DNA of 64,000 bases from the NCBI GenBank assembly GCA_016928865.1, contig JAFGJX010000030.1:62835-126834 (forward strand), given 5' to 3'. The position numbers were made by a program. Each line of letters opens with the position of its first letter. The stretch's first letter is position 1. This DNA comes from Spirochaetota bacterium. GTDB taxonomy: Bacteria; Spirochaetota; UBA4802; UBA5550. Positions 24,001 to 33,000 of this stretch are shown one piece after another.

Positions 24001-27000
24001 GAACCGCTCCGATTATTGATCGAGATGTGTATACATATTCCGGTTGCATAAATCATGCAGAATGCATAGAAACTCTAACGCTAAACCGTTAAAAATGCCG
24101 AAAATAGTATATATCGAAAGAAGTTTAAAAAACAACAATTGACATCCCGGGATTGATCTTTTATTATTACACATAGGGACCCAGTATGAGAAAGACTGCC
24201 GTATGTATGACCGTTTGCACCGCGCTTGTCTGCGCCGGATATGCCCTGTTGTTTTCTCAGGAGATGGTCAATGACCTCATGAACAACCAGGGAGTCAGGC
24301 TTGGCGAGCAGAACAGGCTGGACGAAGCGATCGAGCTGTTCGACAGGGCGATCGATTTCCGCGAGAAAGCGGCGGCGAAAGCGTACCACAACAAGGGATT
24401 CGCGCTCGAAAAAAAAGGCGAGCTGAAAGCGGCGATCAAGTACTACGAAGAGGCATGGAGGCGTAACCCGAAGCAGGTCCCGACCGGGGAGCGGCTCGGG
24501 TATGGCCTGTATAAAACCGAGGAGTACGACCGCGCCATAGAGGTGGGGGAGGCGGTCATGCGGCTCGATCCGCGCAACACGCAGGTCCCCATATGGCTTG
24601 CTGACGCCTATCGCAGGCGCGGCGGCAAGAAGGTATCTCCGGACAAGGGAGCGGCCGCTGAGGTAAAGCGCCATGTTTTTTATATGTCCATAGACGCCAT
24701 GGCGCGCATGGGCCTCTATTACGGGTCCAAGTCGCACTACGGCGGACTGTACCGCACGAACCTTCACGGGTTCCGGTATGTGCCGGACCCCGGATTGATC
24801 ACCAGCGTCCCCTATACCATTTTCATGAGCATCACGCCGATCCCACTGCTTCAAATCGATCTGACCGTGGAAAACCCGTGGCTGGGGGGCGTCACGCCTC
24901 CGGGGCTGGTGGTTCAGACTGAAAAGGGGGAGGTGCTCTTCCATATAAAGAACTTTACTCTCGGCGCCGGATTCATGGCAAACCATTATGATGACGGTGT
25001 CGCGTTTTACCGTCGGTACAAGCTCACTGACTACAAGGTCGGCTTCATCATCGGGTACCGGAAAGACGATGTTGAAGCGAAAATCACCTGGTACCCGCGA
25101 ATGCTCATCATGGATCCGCGTTCATCAACCGGGAAGACGCTCGATGTGGGCTCGCTTCGCATCGATTATTCATACCAGGCCTATCCCGATATCAAGATCT
25201 ACGGCATGTTCCACTTTCGCGATTATTACGTGTTCTGCCACTCGTTTGACTGGCGGGTCTTCTATGCGAGCTACTACCGGTATTCCGAGAACATCGCCAG
25301 CTACTGGGGCGTGTACGATATGGGCATAGGCCTCACCTTCAGCAACCTTGCACGCCATGAAGACGGGACCGAGCTGTTTTCGCTCAGCGTGGAATGGGTT
25401 GAGCGGTTTTACCTGCGGGACCTGAATAACGACGCTCCGTACACGCTTGCGCCGAACGGCCAGGGATGGTTCGGACTTAATCTCAAGAAATTCACCAAGG
25501 GGAAGCCCTTTTCCGGATTCTGGGCACTTTCCCAGGTCCTGAGCATCAGGTTCGACGAGCAGTTTACCAGAAACTTTTTCATGTACCAGAAGTTCATTGC
25601 GGAGCTGGCAGACCAGGATGCCGAACACCACGAGTTTAACCTCCAGCTCGGAATGGGATTCAAGATCTGAACCATGCACGCAGCAATCGCAGCTTTTGCG
25701 GAGGAAGTGTCGCGCGAGGCGGGGAAGATTCTCCTCCGCGGCTTCAGGTCGGACCGAACCGTGGTGTCATACAAAAGCCGCACGGATATCGTCACTGACT
25801 GCGATAAGGCTTCTGAAGCATTCCTTGTCGATGCCATCGCAAAACGCTTTCCCGATCACACCATAATCGCGGAAGAGGGGAGCCGGCGGGATGCTGCGGG
25901 TGACTATGTCTGGTACGTGGACCCGCTGGATGGCACCAACAACTTCGCGCACGGCCTGCCGTTTTTCTGCGTCTCGATCGGCGTTTTTTCCGTACGGCTA
26001 GAGCAAATAATAGCGGGCGTGGTGTACAACCCCATCCTGGAAGAGACGTTTACCGCGGTCCGCGGCGGCGGCGCATTCTGTAACAAAAAACCGATACGGG
26101 TCTCTTCGATCAAAGACATTGGCATTTCCCTTATCGCTACCGGATTTCCCTATGACAAGGACATTTCGGTAAACAATAACCTGAAGGAGTTCAACCGAAT
26201 CATCCTGCGCATCCAGGGGATCAGGCGAATGGGATCTGCGGCCATTGACCTGTCCTATGTCGCGAGCGGCAGGCTCGACGGATATTGGGAGGGAAAGCTC
26301 AATCCATGGGACATGGCAGCCGGGAGTCTGATTGTCGAAGAGGCTGGCGGAATGGTGACCAGATATAATGGAGGGCCATTCCACCCTGAGTATCCTGAAA
26401 TCGCTGCTTCTAATGGTTTAATTCATGCCCAATTGATACAATTGCTATCATAATAAAAGTATATTGTATACATTTTACTATCTTTTGTATAACAAATAAA
26501 ATTCTCTCCATTTTTACATTCGTAAAACCGAACATTATAATATATATCTTTGATGGCGCCATTGTTCCCGGCCAGCCATTGTCATTTTCAATAAATGCGT
26601 AGGGATTCCGGCAAGAAGATATACATTTGCAAGGCAAAATTTCCAGACCTGTTTTAAATGGTCCAGGCCAGGTCATTGATGAGCAATAAAAGGAAGCATA
26701 TCCGGGTCGCTTATGAAAAAAAGGTGAAGCTTTTCTCGGATGAGTACGCCTTTGAAGGTCAATCGATTGATATCAGCACCAGCGGGATCCAGGTCAGGAC
26801 CAGCGTTCCTTCACCTGAACTTGATGTAGAGCGGATTTCATTCACCCTCCCGTCCAATAATGATGCCATACATATCCCCTGTAAAATCGTCCGGAGCGAC
26901 AGAAGCGATCTGTCCGATGACGAGCAGGTACTGGGGCTTGAATTTGATTATCAGACGGAAGATGAAATGGCGCTCGTCGGCAATTTCATCAAAGACATGA

Positions 27001-30000: not shown

Positions 30001-33000
30001 CCACGGCGGAAGACGATAATCTCACCAGCGCGCGCGCAATGCTGAACGAGGCCGCCTCCCTCCTCCAGCTCGAGGAGGATGGATTATTCAGGTTTTATAC
30101 GGGAGAGGAGCTCTCCTTCATGATGAAAAACGCGGGCTTTGCCGATATCGCGATCACCATGTCCATGGGGAATCCGCCGCAGGCGGTGATCGTGACCGGT
30201 ACAAAGCCGAACGCGGGGTAACGGGTGTCAAAAATATCGGTGTAAATGAATAAATCATGAACATAACGGAAAGAATATTTGAATCGTTAAGCGGATGGAG
30301 CGATCATCCGGCGTTTATCGATCTTGATCCTGAAAGGGGGCCGACGTACGTGTCCGCGCCGCAATTCAGCGGAAGAGTTCGGGACGCGGCAGACATCCTG
30401 AAAAAGCACGGGATACGCAGTGGCTTTATCGTGGCCCTATTTCTAAACAATTCAATAGATTTTATTTCGATTTTTTTAGCGTTGATGTTCATCGGCGCGA
30501 AACCGATTCCGGTAAACATGGCGTTCAGGAAGATCGAGCTTGACGAGATTTTCGCCAACGCGGACCCGCATGCGATCATTGCGGAGCGCGATCACCTGAT
30601 CCATGTACGGGCGCACCTTCCGGGAAGGATTGTCCTTGAGCGGGAAGGCGGGAAGCTCTATCTGCATGATGTCGGCGCCGACGCGGCACGACGGGAGCCG
30701 GCAGAGCTGGGTGGGGACATCGCATCGATCAATTACACCTACCGGGGCCATGGCTATCCCCTGGGCGCGCTGGTGCCGCACCGACAGTACCTCGACGGGG
30801 CTGACGTCCTTGAAAAGGCGGTGATGCTCGAACGGGGAGAACGGATACTGGCAATACTCCCGATGCAGCATATATTCACTCTGATCGGCTGCGTGTTTCT
30901 CCCCCTGCTGTACGGGGTTACGACGGTCATATCGTACAGCAGAAATCCGCTGAGGCTTTTCGAAGCGGTCACCGAACACGGGATCGATTATGTGCTGGCC
31001 GTGCCGGAGCTGTATGAGCTGTTCCTGAATCTGCGCGAGGCCGCAGGCGCGGTACCCCGGATGAAGGCCTTTCTCTCCGGAGGGAGCGTTCTCCCGGAAG
31101 AGCACTATGGCCGTCTTATGGAGGAGTTCGGCGTGGAGCTGATCCACGGCTACGGGCTGACCGAGTTCACGCCCGTGAGCAGAAACATCAGGGGCGCAAT
31201 TCGGCCGGGAACGATCGGCGTGATTAGCGACTGCGTTGAATGCAGGATTGATTCGCCTGACGCGAACGGCTCAGGTGAAATTATGATCAGGACGAAAAAC
31301 ATGGCGCGCGGATATTACAGGCGCCCAGCCGAGACCGCGGATGCCTTCCATGACGGATGGTTTGGTACCGGCGATATCGGGAGAATCGATAACGGGCACC
31401 TGATATTCGAGAGGGAGAAGAAGGGTACCAGAAAGATGAAAGGGAATATGGTGGACCTGGAGGAGGTTAAAAAAGCACTTGTTATGTATTCCTCAGTTTG
31501 CGAAGCAGAGGTAGAGTATTTTAATAAAAATGTTATAGCAACTGTAATTATTAATCCTAGTGTTAATTTTAATGATGATGTATTGAATATTAAAAGACGT
31601 ATGGAAAATATTATAGCAGGATATAAAATTCCAAAAACAATTAATGTATATTAAGGTGAAACATATGGGAAACAATATACAATCATATGATATCAACAAG
31701 GAGATTGTTGAGATCGTATCAAAAGTTACACGTATTGATAAGCATTCAATACTTAAAGAAAATTTAATAAGAGAAGAATTAGGAATTGATTCGTTAATGT
31801 CTATAGAGATTATTGCGAACGTTGAAAAACAATTAAATATTGCAATTGATGAATCTAAAATGAGTAATATCAATACTGTTGGAGATTTTATTAAATTTGT
31901 AGAATTAATAATGGATAGCAAATAAATCTATGAGCACAAGAACGTTACAGCATATATGCTTGATCAGTCCAAAACGTGATCAATGGTCTAAGACGGGAAA
32001 AATACGGGATGTCCTTGAGAAAAATAATAGATATTTAAAAGCGTGGTATGCGCCCAATCTGAGTCTATTAACAATTGCTGGTATTACACCTGCCGACATT
32101 AAAATCACATATATCGATGAAGATTTTGAGTCAATTGATTTTAACGCCAAATATGATTTGGTTGGAATATCGGCAATGACTCAACAGATCGTAAGGGGAT
32201 ATGAAATTGCATCTGAATTCAGGGAAAGAAACATTTTTGTTGTAATAGGTGGTATTCATTCCACGGTCATGCCAGAGGAAGCGTTACAATATGCTGACGC
32301 AGTATTTATTGGCGAATCTGAAAGAACATGGCTCCATTTTTTGAATGATTATCGAAATAATATTGAAAAGAGGATTTATAAACAGGATAAAGATACTCTT
32401 CCTGATTTACAACATGTTGTTCTTCCTCAATATGATATCATTAAAGATAAGAATTATTTTAAAGATCCAAATTATTTTTATAATATGATCCCGATTCAAG
32501 CCGGAAGAGGGTGTCCTCATGATTGTGAATTTTGCCTCGTGTCGAAGATATACGGTAAAAAATACAGGATGAAGAGAATAGACCAGATAAAGCTTGAAAT
32601 AAATGAAATTAAGAAGTATTTTCCAAACAGACTGATAATGTTTGCTGATGACAATCTTTTTATCAACAGGAAATTTTCAAAAGAACTACTGAATGAAATA
32701 AAAGAATTGAATATTCGTTGGGTTGCTCAATCAGACATATCAATTGGTGATGATGATGAGTTATTGGAATTGATATACCAAAGTGGCGGTCTATTCTTGC
32801 TAGTTGGTTTTGAAAGTATAGATCCTGATAATTTGAGGAATCTTAATAAAAGTTCGTGGAAATATAAGCAGCTTTTGAATTATAAGAAAAATATTGATAA
32901 TATTCAAAAGCATGGCATTATCGTTTTTGGATCATTTATCTTTGGGCTTGATAATGATGATGACAGTGTTTTTAAGGGTGTCGTAGATTTTATGCATGGG

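What the first reader, a model, noticed from the sequence alone, without database searches (positions are those of the whole stretch)
26658..30221. Unusual enzyme fusion: three PilZ domains driving a hydrolase plus methyltransferase
PilZ receptors are usually stand-alone or fused to glycosyltransferases and MCPs. Here three consecutive RxxxR…(D/N)xSxxG modules (aa 12-45, 125-160 and 352-390) precede an alpha/beta-hydrolase (about aa 480-760) and a class I methyltransferase (motif I DMGCGTG, about aa 850-1187). This suggests direct allosteric control of two catalytic activities by c-di-GMP occupancy. Multi-valent binding could give switch-like behaviour.
Basis: partly seen in the sequence, partly recalled or inferred. 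Interest (0 to 1): 0.62.

Follow-up and report, generated by a model that had tools for sequence, protein, structure and literature searches.

The report
c-di-GMP-sensing acyl-transfer/methylation enzyme in signalling operon
A conserved, uncharacterised 1187-residue bacterial protein joins three intact c-di-GMP-binding PilZ sites to a LuxD-type acyl hydrolase and a methyltransferase, in an operon that also encodes a c-di-GMP-degrading sensor kinase, which points to a new way for this second messenger to control small-lipid or signal-molecule synthesis.

Summary
ORF 26658-30221 (+) encodes a 1187-aa soluble protein with three RxxxR…[D/N]hSxxG pairs, at exactly the stated positions. None of 20,000 shuffles gave three pairs, and the motif residues are invariant or nearly so in 25 homologues of 39-76% identity.

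The hydrolase is LuxD-type (Ser611/Asp711/His740). The class I methyltransferase has intact SAM motifs and a helical insert of about 135 aa.

The fusion occurs in 55 species-level MAGs, mostly Spirochaetota and some Desulfobacterales. It heads a conserved five-gene cassette: fusion, acyl-AMP ligase, ACP, B12-radical-SAM enzyme, and MASE8 histidine kinase-REC-HD-GYP (a c-di-GMP phosphodiesterase).

Unexpectedly, the block from the ligase C-terminus through ACP and rSAM to the kinase sensor domain is AT-rich. It is exchanged as a unit between lineages, much like quorum-sensing pherotype regions.

Best reading: a c-di-GMP-gated offloading/methylating enzyme of an ACP-based pathway, whose product is probably sensed by the adjacent kinase. 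c-di-GMP binding, the chemistry and the signal role are all inferred, not shown.

The parts
26658..30221 (+). ORF for the 1187-aa PilZ-PilZ-(PilZN-PilZ)-LuxD-like hydrolase-methyltransferase fusion. The probable true start is ATG 26679 (M8).
   Evidence: The protein is soluble (maximum 19-aa hydropathy 1.43).
26513..26541 (+). Best sigma-70-like promoter match (TTTACA-17-TATAAT, 11 of 12) in the 204-nt AT-rich intergenic region upstream of the operon.
   Evidence: This is a consensus match only. No riboswitch was found here.
26685..27020 (+). PilZ module 1 (aa 10-121). It has R12-K-H-I-R16 and D38-I-S40-T-S-G43, and forms a beta-barrel plus a C-terminal helix (aa 101-121).
   Evidence: Pfam PilZ E=5e-14; alignment; model.
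27030..27353 (+). PilZ module 2 (aa 125-232). It has R129-I-I-P-R133 and N155-I-S157-T-D-G160, and forms a barrel plus a helix (aa 217-232).
   Evidence: Pfam PilZ E=1e-4, 23 bits; hhalign to module 1 at 93%; motif residues invariant; model.
27405..27713 (+). PilZN-like (YcgR-N-type) barrel without binding motifs (aa ~250-352), preceded by helices at aa 234-270.
   Evidence: Profile hit to PP4397 residues 12-199 across aa 252-430; Foldseek match to the YcgR-N domain 5y6h, TM 0.74; no sequence similarity to canonical PilZ.
27717..28022 (+). PilZ module 3 (aa 354-455). R357-S-H-D-R361 lies in the PilZN-PilZ linker, followed by N388-V-S390-R-R-G393.
   Evidence: The motifs align with RRNAFR and DISATG of c-di-GMP-bound PP4397; hhalign to module 1 at 89%; residues invariant.
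28110..28952 (+). LuxD-type alpha/beta-hydrolase (acyl transferase/thioesterase) domain, aa ~485-765. The nucleophile elbow is A-F-S611-M-S-A, with D711 and H740.
   Evidence: phmmer alignment to LuxD 1tht pairs AFSMSA with AASLSA, DRWV with DDWV and GHNL with SHDL. PF02273 matches 16 of 25 family members, best E=2.9e-9, but the window protein scores only 16-19 bits against a cut-off of 20.3. The triad is invariant. The cap region, aa 635-741, is modelled with low confidence.
28980..30218 (+). Class I SAM-dependent methyltransferase with an N-terminal cap (aa ~775-1187). It has motif I D845xGCGTG851 and D877.
   Evidence: Pfam Methyltransf_23/31/11/25; Foldseek hits to Coq5, CouO/NovO, Rv2258c, CurJ C-MT and others; motif residues invariant.
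29391..29801 (+). Helical insert of about 135 aa between beta-3 and beta-4 of the methyltransferase (aa ~912-1048). It is absent from the ~830-aa branch of the family.
   Evidence: Split Pfam matches; secondary structure and pLDDT 80-92; two core-length classes, ~560 and ~690 aa.
30257..31654 (+). Acyl-AMP-forming ligase (ANL family, 465 aa), 35 nt downstream of the fusion gene.
   Evidence: Pfam AMP-binding E=7e-51; NCBIfam fatty-acid ligase families, all below their cut-offs; directly downstream in essentially all loci that have downstream DNA.
31644..31925 (+). Dedicated acyl carrier protein (93 aa). It overlaps the ligase gene by 11 nt.
   Evidence: PP-binding E=4e-12.
31930..33273 (+). 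Class B (B12-binding) radical SAM enzyme (447 aa). It matches no curated equivalog.
   Evidence: B12-binding, Radical_SAM and DUF4070. The best NCBIfam hits (HpnJ, BchE, PhpK, ladderane-type) are all far below their cut-offs.
33270..35840 (+). Hybrid sensor (856 aa): a membrane domain with about six hydrophobic peaks within aa 24-183, called MASE8 in the homologous genes of L002-L004, then HisKA-HATPase, REC and HD-GYP. It overlaps the rSAM gene by 4 nt.
   Evidence: Pfam on the window protein gives HisKA, HATPase_c, Response_reg, HD and HD_5 but no MASE8. MASE8 comes from precomputed hits on the homologous genes. The H-box SHELRTP, the HD motif (ALLHDVGK) and HHEHYNGEGYP are visible in the sequence.
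31478..33825 (+). AT-rich (25-38% GC), exchangeable variable block. It covers the last ~60 codons of the ligase, the ACP, the rSAM enzyme and the first ~185-205 codons (membrane sensor) of the kinase.
   Evidence: GC profile. blastn homology to the sister locus L005 stops at 31477 and resumes at 33826.

Best explanation
The protein is a c-di-GMP receptor-enzyme. Three binding-competent PilZ sites sit in front of a LuxD-type acyl-ACP acyltransferase/thioesterase fused to a SAM-dependent methyltransferase. The sites are two canonical PilZ domains plus a YcgR-like PilZN-PilZ unit next to the catalytic half.

It is the first gene of a translationally coupled five-gene operon. In that operon a ligase loads an acid onto a dedicated ACP, and a B12-radical-SAM enzyme modifies the tethered acyl chain. 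The LuxD-like domain most likely takes the acyl group off a carrier protein. The methyltransferase most likely methylates it, probably at the carboxyl end, giving a small hydrophobic product.

c-di-GMP occupancy of the PilZ sites gates this step. By analogy with YcgR and BcsA, binding at RxxxR linkers re-packs the barrels against the catalytic domains.

The last gene is a membrane-embedded sensor kinase fused to REC-HD-GYP, which degrades c-di-GMP when activated. Receptor and phosphodiesterase therefore form one circuit. Because the ACP, rSAM and kinase sensor segments are swapped together between lineages, the kinase most likely senses the pathway's own product, which would close a feedback loop.

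Shown: the domain architecture, motif integrity, family conservation, operon linkage and block exchange. Inferred: c-di-GMP binding, its direction of effect, the substrates and order of reactions, and what the kinase senses.

Sub-confidences: intact c-di-GMP-binding fusion enzyme about 0.85; c-di-GMP regulates its activity about 0.65; its product is the ligand of the adjacent kinase about 0.35. The overall figure of 0.5 is for the statement as a whole.
For: Motifs and fold:
- Three motif pairs, with none of 20,000 shuffles giving three. The motif residues are invariant or nearly so across 25 homologues.
- The PilZ and YcgR folds are predicted and matched to c-di-GMP-bound structures.
- The RxxxR loops are the low-confidence, flexible parts of the model, as expected for apo PilZ.

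Catalytic half:
- The LuxD-equivalent Ser/Asp/His align to 1tht. PF02273 matches 16 of 25 members.
- The methyltransferase motifs and fold are intact.

Family:
- The fusion is present in 55 species-level genomes.
- The hydrolase-methyltransferase core has 360 representatives at E<=1e-30. Among the 175 complete-core sequences examined, 1, 2 or 3 motif-bearing PilZ modules are found, and the YcgR-like unit next to the hydrolase is the one always retained.

Operon and circuit:
- The cassette of ligase, ACP, B12-rSAM and HK-REC-HD-GYP is conserved around homologues of 40-54% identity whose flanks are unrelated.
- Gene overlaps of 11 and 4 nt and gaps of 35 and 4 nt indicate one operon.
- The HD-GYP motifs are intact.

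Variable block:
- Partial correlations given core identity are rSAM~sensor 0.66, rSAM~ACP 0.57 and sensor~ACP 0.65.
- L008 vs L009: core 79/86% but block 47/31/40%. L007 vs L009: core 71/78% but block 82/84/78%.
- The window's rSAM is 66% identical to a Desulfotignum copy and its sensor 62% identical to another, against 43% to the sister genome.
Against: - No experiment exists. Every family member comes from an uncultured MAG, and no paper in the searchable library mentions this architecture.
- The window protein's own LuxD Pfam score is below the gathering cut-off (16-19 vs 20.3 bits).
- The hydrolase cap, including D711 and H740, is modelled at pLDDT <50, so triad geometry is not verified.
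- Methyltransferase fold matches are generic. They include C-, N- and O-methyltransferases, so carboxyl methylation is a guess.
- No sub-region of the fusion protein co-varies with the variable block (partial r -0.16 to 0.13). There is therefore no direct evidence that it handles the rSAM product.
- The rSAM gene is undetected, relocated or inverted in some loci (L025, L026, L029, L038, L040, L055; L027, L054, L056).
- The correlation figures come from non-independent locus pairs and carry no valid p-value.
- No diguanylate cyclase is part of the cassette.
Confidence: 0.5

Rival explanations
1. c-di-GMP-dependent scaffolding or localisation rather than allostery. The PilZ/YcgR-like modules bind c-di-GMP and then recruit the enzyme to a partner without changing catalytic rates directly. 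Known precedents for this mode are MapZ-CheR and YcgR-motor. The partner could be the ligase/ACP/rSAM complex, the membrane kinase or the flagellar motor.
For: Both canonical PilZ domains keep the charged C-terminal helix (model helices at aa 101-121 and 217-232). The literature treats this helix as a protein-interaction surface (10.1101/814665). The third module is YcgR-type, and characterised members of that type act by binding partners. N-terminal modules are added or lost freely across the family.
Against: Covalent fusion to the catalytic domains across the whole family suggests in-cis control, as in BcsA. This covers 55 genomes and 360 representatives, and the YcgR-like unit is always adjacent to the hydrolase. 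No PilZ segment co-varies with the variable partners.
Confidence: 0.2
2. BioC/BioH-like 'mask and unmask' chemistry. The methyltransferase esterifies a free carboxyl of an ACP-bound dicarboxylate so that it can be processed by the rSAM enzyme or by fatty-acid enzymes. The hydrolase domain later removes the methyl ester. The two domains would then catalyse opposing steps rather than offloading followed by methylation.
For: There are weak NCBIfam hits to BioC (E=5e-4) and BioH (E=0.034). JGI labels some homologues 'pimeloyl-ACP methyl ester carboxylesterase'. The operon encodes a dedicated ACP and ligase.
Against: Both hits are far below the curated cut-offs (19.9 vs 185 bits; 13.8 vs 207 bits). 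The only alpha/beta-hydrolase family that recurs across members is LuxD-type acyl transferase (16 of 25), and the active-site spacing matches LuxD.
Confidence: 0.12
3. Cell-autonomous membrane-lipid remodelling. The cassette makes a modified, for example methyl-branched or esterified, lipid for the cell's own envelope under c-di-GMP control. The membrane kinase monitors membrane state, not an intercellular signal.
For: Homologues of the kinase sensor are classed as MASE8. The window's copy shows about six hydrophobic peaks with short intervening stretches and no long hydrophilic stretch, which suits sensing within the membrane. B12-rSAM relatives include lipid-modifying enzymes such as hopanoid methylases and the ladderane-type enzyme. 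No exporter is encoded in the cassette.
Against: A housekeeping lipid function does not explain why the ACP, rSAM and sensor segments are repeatedly exchanged as matched alleles between close relatives. The cassette is patchily distributed rather than universal.
Confidence: 0.25
4. The PilZ modules are relics that no longer bind c-di-GMP, and the fusion has no second-messenger role.
For: Pfam barely detects module 2 (23 bits) and does not detect module 3 (E=0.13). Many PilZ-like domains are known to have lost binding (10.1101/2020.02.11.943704).
Against: All three RxxxR and [D/N]hSxxG motifs are invariant or nearly so down to 39% identity. The motifs align with those of a c-di-GMP-bound crystal structure. 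The operon encodes an intact HD-GYP phosphodiesterase.
Confidence: 0.05

Closest known systems
BcsA cellulose synthase (glycosyltransferase with a C-terminal PilZ) and Alg44
   Same: An enzyme, or enzyme partner, is covalently fused to a canonical PilZ domain, so that c-di-GMP binding at RxxxR/[D/N]xSxxG gates catalysis. BcsA and Alg44 PilZ structures are among the fold matches.
   Different: Here there are three binding sites plus a PilZN barrel, placed N-terminally. The outputs are a LuxD-type acyl hydrolase and a SAM methyltransferase, not a polysaccharide synthase. The protein is soluble. Published lists of PilZ fusions (GT, HlyD, REC, GGDEF, EAL, HD-GYP, MCP, CheC, Ser/Thr kinase) do not include these outputs (10.1101/814665).
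YcgR / PP4397 / MotI / PlzA two-domain (PilZN-PilZ) c-di-GMP receptors
   Same: Residues ~250-455 have the same layout: a motif-less N-terminal barrel, RxxxR in the linker, then a PilZ barrel. A profile hit to PP4397 aligns both motifs, and these proteins are the top Foldseek matches.
   Different: Those proteins are stand-alone adaptors that act on motors, DNA or partners. Here the unit is embedded between two further PilZ domains and a bifunctional enzyme.
LuxD (Vibrio harveyi myristoyl-ACP thioesterase/acyl transferase, PDB 1tht; Pfam PF02273)
   Same: It has the same alpha/beta-hydrolase family signature, with an A-x-S-x-S nucleophile elbow and Asp and His at equivalent spacing. The family model matches 16 of 25 members.
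   Different: Sequence similarity is marginal for the window protein itself. There are no lux genes. The domain is fused to PilZ and methyltransferase domains. The substrate is unknown.
Rpf/DSF system of Xanthomonas (RpfB ligase, RpfF synthase, RpfC hybrid kinase, RpfG REC-HD-GYP) and Ralstonia PhcB (methyltransferase making 3-OH fatty acid methyl ester signals). This comparison rests on established knowledge and is partly supported by 10.1101/2021.11.05.467447.
   Same: A fatty-acid-derived molecule pathway is clustered with an acyl ligase, a membrane sensor kinase and a REC-HD-GYP response regulator that links the signal to c-di-GMP. A methyltransferase could produce a methyl ester.
   Different: There is no crotonase-type RpfF. 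Synthesis uses a dedicated ACP plus a B12-radical-SAM enzyme. The synthase itself carries c-di-GMP receptors, which would close the loop. Kinase, REC and HD-GYP are usually fused in one protein.
agr (Staphylococcus) and com (Streptococcus) pherotype loci. This comparison rests on established knowledge.
   Same: A hypervariable segment with breakpoints inside genes spans the signal-making component(s) and the sensor domain of the kinase. The catalytic chassis stays conserved, and alleles are exchanged between lineages.
   Different: The putative signal would be an acyl or lipid-like molecule made on an ACP by a radical SAM enzyme, not a peptide. The output is c-di-GMP hydrolysis rather than a transcription factor. 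Function as an intercellular signal is not shown.

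Membership tests
PilZ domain (PF07238), canonical c-di-GMP receptor | RxxxR motif in the N-terminal loop | tested here: met
   R12-R16, R129-R133 and R357-R361 are present. R129, R133, R357 and R361 are invariant, and R12 and R16 are at least 90% conserved.
PilZ domain (PF07238), canonical c-di-GMP receptor | [D/N]hSxxG motif with a hydrophobic second residue | tested here: met
   D38-I-S-T-S-G43, N155-I-S-T-D-G160 and N388-V-S-R-R-G393 are present. The Ser and Gly residues are invariant.
PilZ domain (PF07238), canonical c-di-GMP receptor | Six-stranded beta-barrel, with a C-terminal helix in canonical members | tested here: met
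   The AF2 model (pLDDT 73) has barrels at aa 16-96, 134-212 and 367-451, with helices at 101-121 and 217-232. Foldseek TM scores normalised to the target reach 0.69-0.75 for Alg44 and BcsA PilZ structures. The tool does not report which query residues each hit covers.
PilZ domain (PF07238), canonical c-di-GMP receptor | Pfam score above the gathering cut-off for each module | tested here: inconclusive
   Module 1 scores 53 bits and module 2 scores 23 bits, against a cut-off of 22.5. Module 3 scores 13 bits, E=0.13. Module 3 is recovered only by profile and fold comparisons.
PilZ domain (PF07238), canonical c-di-GMP receptor | Binds c-di-GMP | not testable with these tools
   This needs ITC, DRaCALA or MST on purified protein.
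YcgR-like two-domain receptors (PilZN-PilZ) | Motif-less N-terminal PilZ-like barrel, followed by RxxxR in the linker and a PilZ barrel | tested here: met
   hmmsearch of the N-terminal profile hits PP4397 (3kyf/2gjg), E=1.1e-3, across aa 252-430 with both motifs aligned. The YcgR-N structure 5y6h matches with TM 0.74. The segment has no sequence similarity to canonical PilZ.
YcgR-like two-domain receptors (PilZN-PilZ) | Pfam PilZN (YcgR, PF07317) or YcgR_2 match | tested here: not met
   No Pfam hit to aa 235-345 at E<=10. This would be a divergent xPilZ type.
LuxD-type acyl transferase (PF02273, Acyl_transf_2) | Family HMM score at or above the gathering cut-off (20.3 bits) | tested here: inconclusive
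   The window protein scores 16.0 bits (whole protein) and 19.3 bits (domain alone), both below the cut-off. Sixteen of 25 homologues match at E<0.01, best 2.9e-9. P0062 (28.5 bits) and P0069 (27.4 bits) are above the cut-off.
LuxD-type acyl transferase (PF02273, Acyl_transf_2) | Ser-Asp-His triad at LuxD-equivalent positions, with an A-x-S-x-S elbow | tested here: met
   The alignment to 1tht pairs AFS611MSA with AASLSA, D711RWV with DDWV and GH740NL with SHDL. All three residues are invariant. Triad geometry is not verified because the cap region has pLDDT <50.
LuxD-type acyl transferase (PF02273, Acyl_transf_2) | Acyl-ACP thioesterase/acyl-transfer activity | not testable with these tools
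   This needs an enzyme assay with acyl-ACP substrates.
Class I SAM-dependent methyltransferase | Motif I (D/ExGxGxG), an acidic residue at the end of beta-2, and a seven-stranded Rossmann-like fold | tested here: met
   D845-M-G-C-G-T-G851 and D877 are invariant. Five Pfam methyltransferase families match at or near their cut-offs. The model shows the strand order, and Foldseek hits many SAM- or SAH-bound methyltransferases.
BioC / BioH pair | Scores reaching the NCBIfam equivalog cut-offs | tested here: not met
   BioC scores 19.9 bits against a cut-off of 185. BioH scores 13.8 bits against 207.
Rpf/DSF quorum-sensing cluster | Crotonase-family RpfF synthase together with RpfC and RpfG | tested here: not met
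   No enoyl-CoA hydratase or crotonase domain is found in any cassette gene. The ligase and the HK-REC-HD-GYP parts are analogous only.
Pherotype-type (agr-like) variable signalling locus | A variable block spanning the signal-synthesis and sensor-domain segments, with a phylogeny incongruent with the conserved flanks | tested here: met
   Breakpoints fall at 31477 and 33826 against L005, and at equivalent places in L008/L009 and L049/L054. Segment identities are incongruent, with partial correlations of 0.57-0.66. No formal recombination test was run.
Pherotype-type (agr-like) variable signalling locus | The product is an extracellular signal that activates the cognate kinase allele only | not testable with these tools
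   This needs cross-activation experiments.

The most novel reading that the evidence does not exclude
The cassette is a previously unrecognised kind of self-contained cell-cell or self-sensing signalling system. A lipid-like molecule is built on a dedicated ACP by a B12-radical-SAM enzyme and released or methyl-esterified by the PilZ-gated enzyme. It is detected in the membrane by the sensor domain of the co-encoded kinase, which then activates HD-GYP to lower c-di-GMP. That in turn resets the PilZ-gated synthase.

The matched, exchangeable alleles of ACP, rSAM and sensor would then be 'pherotypes' of a non-peptide signal. This would be the first case of a signal synthase that is itself a multivalent c-di-GMP receptor.
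Probability: 0.27. Interest if true: 0.87.

Novelty: new variant of a known kind. Interest (0 to 1): 0.68.

Why it matters
Known PilZ effectors control polysaccharide synthases, motors, chemoreceptors and transcription. A c-di-GMP receptor fused to acyl-transfer and methylation enzymes would extend second-messenger control to small-molecule or lipid biosynthesis.

The three intact sites in one chain, with natural 1-, 2- and 3-site variants in the family, offer a ready-made series for testing how receptor valency shapes dose-response.

Receptor and phosphodiesterase are encoded in one operon. The product-making and sensing parts are swapped as matched alleles. Together these make a concrete, testable model of a c-di-GMP feedback circuit coupled to a possibly strain-specific lipid signal. 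The organisms concerned are environmental Spirochaetota and Desulfobacterales, for which almost nothing is known experimentally.

Tried and rejected
- **Assembly or fusion artefact: rejected.** The full-length architecture recurs in 38 protein clusters and 55 genomes.
- **Stand-alone hydrolase-methyltransferase ancestor (P0062, 736 aa): rejected.** The upstream ORF in L060 carries PilZ motifs and ends in a run of Ns, so the split is an assembly gap. Other short representatives look like fragments.
- **c-di-GMP or other riboswitch in the 204-nt leader: none.** Only a sub-threshold CRISPR-DR match turned up.
- **Co-variation of any part of the fusion protein with the variable block: none.** Partial r ranged from -0.16 to 0.13.
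- **Literature for this architecture or cassette: nothing relevant**.
- A first tblastn used an out-of-frame REC-HD-GYP query (redone). A first anchor regex was too strict. A first N-terminal length estimate was confounded by the methyltransferase insert (corrected).
- **Flanking genes are not part of the cassette.** TPR, inositol monophosphatase and XseA are syntenic only in close relatives.

Full report
**Observation**

The window contains an uninterrupted ORF at 26658-30221 (+) of 1187 codons. None of 20,000 shuffles of the N-terminal 470 residues gave three pairs, and 14 gave two. Elsewhere in the window only one other convincing pair exists. It lies in a separate 126-aa ORF that looks like a stand-alone PilZ protein at 47585-47965 (-) (it was not scanned against Pfam). 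Homologues begin at the second Met (MSNKRKH…), so the true start is probably 26679.

**N-terminal half**

- Pfam recognises PilZ at aa 10-111 (E=5e-14) and aa ~150-230 (E=1e-4, 23 bits). It does not recognise the third module (E=0.13) or aa 235-345.
- Profile-profile comparison of family sub-alignments shows that module 1 is homologous to module 2 (93%). It is also homologous to the motif-bearing half of module 3 (89%), with RxxxR aligned to RxxxR and DISxSG aligned to DISRRG.
- A family profile hits the YcgR-like protein PP4397 (2gjg; 3kyf is its c-di-GMP complex) over aa 252-430. This places SEKRSxxRK on PP4397's RRNAFR and DISRRG on DISATG.
- An AlphaFold2 model of aa 1-478 (10-sequence alignment, pLDDT 73) has four beta-barrels. 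Barrels at 16-96 and 134-212 are each followed by a helix. After helices at 234-270 come barrels at 273-354 and 367-451. The three RxxxR loops are the disordered parts.
- Foldseek against the PDB returns only PilZ-family proteins at the top. These are PP4397, MrkH, YcgR, PlzA, VCA0042 and MotI as two-domain matches, then the isolated YcgR-N domain, then the MapZ, Alg44 and BcsA PilZ domains.

The N-terminus is therefore PilZ-PilZ-(PilZN-PilZ), with three motif-bearing sites and one motif-less barrel. In the 25-sequence alignment (39-76% identity) the motif residues are invariant or nearly so. All three second motifs have the hydrophobic second residue ([D/N]hSxxG) emphasised by Galperin and Chou.

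**Catalytic half**

*Hydrolase.*
- The only alpha/beta-hydrolase family that appears is LuxD-type acyl transferase (PF02273). The window protein is sub-threshold (16-19 bits against 20.3). Sixteen of 25 homologues match at E<0.01, with a best E of 2.9e-9, and some family members exceed the cut-off.
- phmmer aligns the domain to LuxD (1tht). AFS611MSA falls on AASLSA, D711RWV on DDWV and GH740NL on SHDL. All three residues are invariant.

*Methyltransferase.*
- It has invariant D845xGCGTG851 and D877 and a normal strand order.
- A confidently helical insert of about 135 aa lies between beta-3 and beta-4.
- Fold matches are generic small-molecule methyltransferases (Coq5, CouO/NovO, Rv2258c, PKS C-MTs), plus a few alpha/beta-hydrolases.

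*Model quality.* The C-terminal model is only moderate (pLDDT 69). The hydrolase cap, including D711 and H740, is below 50, so triad geometry is not verified.

**Family**

- Thirty-eight clusters in the protein collection share the full architecture, mostly labelled Spirochaetes/Spirochaetota and 'PilZ domain-containing protein'.
- A scan of one genome per species finds it in 55 genomes, all MAGs. Most are Spirochaetota, several are Desulfobacterales, and two are labelled Eubacteriales.
- A sensitive search with the catalytic half alone finds 360 representatives at E<=1e-30.
- Among the 175 sequences with a complete core, N-terminal extensions fall into classes:
  - about 240-300 aa with one motif pair (48 representatives);
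  - about 360-420 aa with one or two pairs;
  - about 420-540 aa with two or three pairs.
- The shortest class aligns to the window's PilZN-PilZ3 unit and lacks the methyltransferase insert.
- A Desulfotignum copy lacks the first PilZ (1077 aa). One variant has an added N-terminal REC domain.
- An apparently PilZ-less member is an assembly-gap artefact.

The YcgR-like unit adjacent to the hydrolase is therefore the constant regulatory element. Canonical PilZ domains have been added in front of it once or twice.

**Context**

The four genes downstream are an ANL-family acyl-AMP ligase, a 93-aa ACP, a B12-binding radical SAM enzyme that matches no curated equivalog, and an 856-aa sensor protein. 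That protein is a HisKA-HATPase-REC-HD-GYP hybrid with a membrane N-terminus. Precomputed hits on the homologous genes class the N-terminus as MASE8.

Spacing indicates one operon: a 35-nt gap, an 11-nt overlap, a 4-nt gap and a 4-nt overlap. A good promoter-like match lies in the 204-nt leader, and no riboswitch was found.

The kinase has about six hydrophobic peaks within aa 24-183, an H-box, and intact HD and HHExxxGxGYP motifs.

The same five-gene set surrounds homologues of 40-54% identity whose other neighbours are unrelated. tblastn finds the ligase directly downstream in essentially every locus with downstream DNA. It finds HK, REC and HD-GYP in about 40 loci. The rSAM gene is sometimes inverted, moved or not detected. 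TPR, inositol monophosphatase and XseA are neighbours only in close relatives.

**An unexpected feature**

GC content falls from 50-66% to 25-38% between about 31500 and 33900, with both edges inside genes. Against the closest relative, L005, nucleotide homology runs from 24093 to 31477, disappears, and resumes at 33826.

| Segment (window vs L005) | Protein identity |
|---|---|
| Flanking segments | 70-96% |
| Last ~60 residues of the ligase | 32% |
| ACP | 34-38% |
| rSAM | 42% |
| First ~200 residues of the kinase | 34-56% |

The same kind of gap occurs in L008/L009 and L049/L054. Across 496 locus pairs, hydrolase identity tracks kinase-core identity (Spearman 0.50) but not rSAM identity (0.09). 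After regressing out core identity, the block segments co-vary: rSAM with sensor 0.66, rSAM with ACP 0.57, and sensor with ACP 0.65.

Discordant cases occur in both directions:
- L008 vs L009: core 79/86%, block 47/31/40%.
- L007 vs L009: core 71/78%, block 82/84/78%.
- The window's rSAM is most similar to that of one Desulfotignum MAG (66%), and its sensor to that of another (62%).

Strong AT-richness of the block is limited to the window's clade. The pairs are not independent, so these are descriptive numbers, not tests. No part of the PilZ-hydrolase-methyltransferase protein co-varies with the block.

**Mechanism**

*Shown.* The protein is a conserved soluble fusion with three intact c-di-GMP-binding signatures, an intact Ser-Asp-His LuxD-like site and an intact SAM site. 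It is in operonic linkage with an acid-activating ligase, a carrier protein, a radical SAM enzyme and a kinase-controlled c-di-GMP phosphodiesterase. The carrier, rSAM and sensor parts are exchanged as a unit.

*Inferred.*
- The PilZ sites bind c-di-GMP and gate the catalytic half in cis, as in BcsA and YcgR.
- The LuxD-like domain removes an acyl group from a carrier protein, and the methyltransferase methylates it. Because the fusion protein belongs to the conserved chassis and does not co-vary with the block, it probably recognises the invariant thioester or carboxyl end. The rSAM enzyme would determine the variable part.
- Co-exchange of the ligase C-terminal tail with the ACP fits a docking interface.
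- Co-exchange of rSAM with the membrane sensor fits the kinase sensing the pathway's product.
- Kinase activation would phosphorylate REC, activate HD-GYP and lower c-di-GMP. That would change occupancy of the PilZ sites on the synthase and close a feedback loop.

The sign of each step is unknown.

*Rivals.* These are c-di-GMP-dependent recruitment rather than allostery, BioC/BioH-like mask-and-unmask chemistry, a cell-autonomous lipid-remodelling role, and degenerate non-binding PilZ domains.

**Comparison with what is known**

- It works like PilZ-gated enzymes (BcsA) and contains a YcgR-like unit. It passes the sequence and fold criteria for PilZ and for class I methyltransferases.
- Membership of the LuxD family is supported at family level and by the active-site alignment, but the window protein's own score is sub-threshold.
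- It is not a BioC/BioH pair.
- It is not an Rpf cluster, because there is no crotonase synthase. The ligase plus HK-REC-HD-GYP arrangement is nevertheless analogous to RpfB/C/G.
- The variable block resembles agr and com pherotype regions in layout only.
- Reviews of PilZ architectures list fusions to glycosyltransferase, HlyD, REC, GGDEF, EAL, HD-GYP, MCP, CheC and a Ser/Thr kinase, and PilZ-PilZ tandems. They list no hydrolase or methyltransferase fusion and no three-site protein.
- Six full-text searches and three targeted paper look-ups found no description of this protein or cassette.

**Verdict**

This is a new variant of a known kind: a PilZ-regulated enzyme with new outputs, new valency and a built-in circuit. 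I score interest at 0.68. The fusion alone would be a moderately surprising new class of c-di-GMP effector. The operon-level circuit and the exchangeable synthesis and sensing block make it a concrete entry point to a possibly new lipid-signal system. Everything functional is still inference, and all carriers are uncultured.

Noticed in passing
window 31478-33825 (also L005 ~12800-15115, L008/L009 ~12820-15280, L049/L054 ~13260-14915): An AT-rich (25-38% GC) block with breakpoints inside genes spans the ligase C-terminus, the ACP, the B12-rSAM gene and the kinase's membrane sensor domain. It is about 35-45% identical between sister genomes whose flanks are 70-96% identical. It is exchanged as a unit between lineages, in a layout like quorum-sensing pherotype regions.
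   Followed up: yes
window 26658 vs 26679: The longest ORF starts at ATG 26658, but all homologues start at the Met seven codons later (MSNKRKH…). An AGG lies 7 nt upstream of 26679, so the real start is probably 26679 (1180 aa).
   Followed up: partly
window 47585-47965 (-): A separate 126-aa ORF carries a clean RxxxR…NxSxxG pair (ERRTHTRV…NISLLG). It is probably a stand-alone single-domain PilZ protein, but it was not scanned against Pfam.
   Followed up: partly
L019 7944-11177 (Desulfotignum MAG); also L017, L038: Desulfobacterales copies of the fusion lack the first PilZ domain (1077 aa, starting at the equivalent of aa ~125). The rSAM and sensor alleles most similar to the window's come from these low-GC lineages.
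   Followed up: partly
P0027 / L062 9001-12303: One variant has a REC receiver domain added in front of the three PilZ modules, which hints at direct phospho-control of the enzyme. Its C-terminus stops 45 nt from the contig end and may be truncated.
   Followed up: partly
P0100 / L061 8001-10499 and about 48 other representatives: A large ~830-aa branch of the family has only the YcgR-like PilZN-PilZ unit (one motif pair) and lacks the ~135-aa methyltransferase insert. In L061 a radical SAM gene lies directly upstream and abuts it.
   Followed up: partly
L001/L054 ~13450-16650: In this lineage the rSAM gene is on the opposite strand. The sensor kinase and REC-HD-GYP are separate genes rather than one fused protein.
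   Followed up: no
window 11531-16660 and 17344-22212 (+): Two very large ORFs (1709 and 1622 aa) with bacterial Ig-like repeats (Big_5, Big_12) lie upstream. They are probably surface proteins.
   Followed up: no
window 38032-39576 (-) and 875-2811 (-): A methyl-accepting chemotaxis protein gene lies just beyond the cassette. Two ORFs of 283 and 281 aa at the window start match in size and position the two flagellin genes at the start of the syntenic loci L002/L003. They were not scanned here.
   Followed up: no
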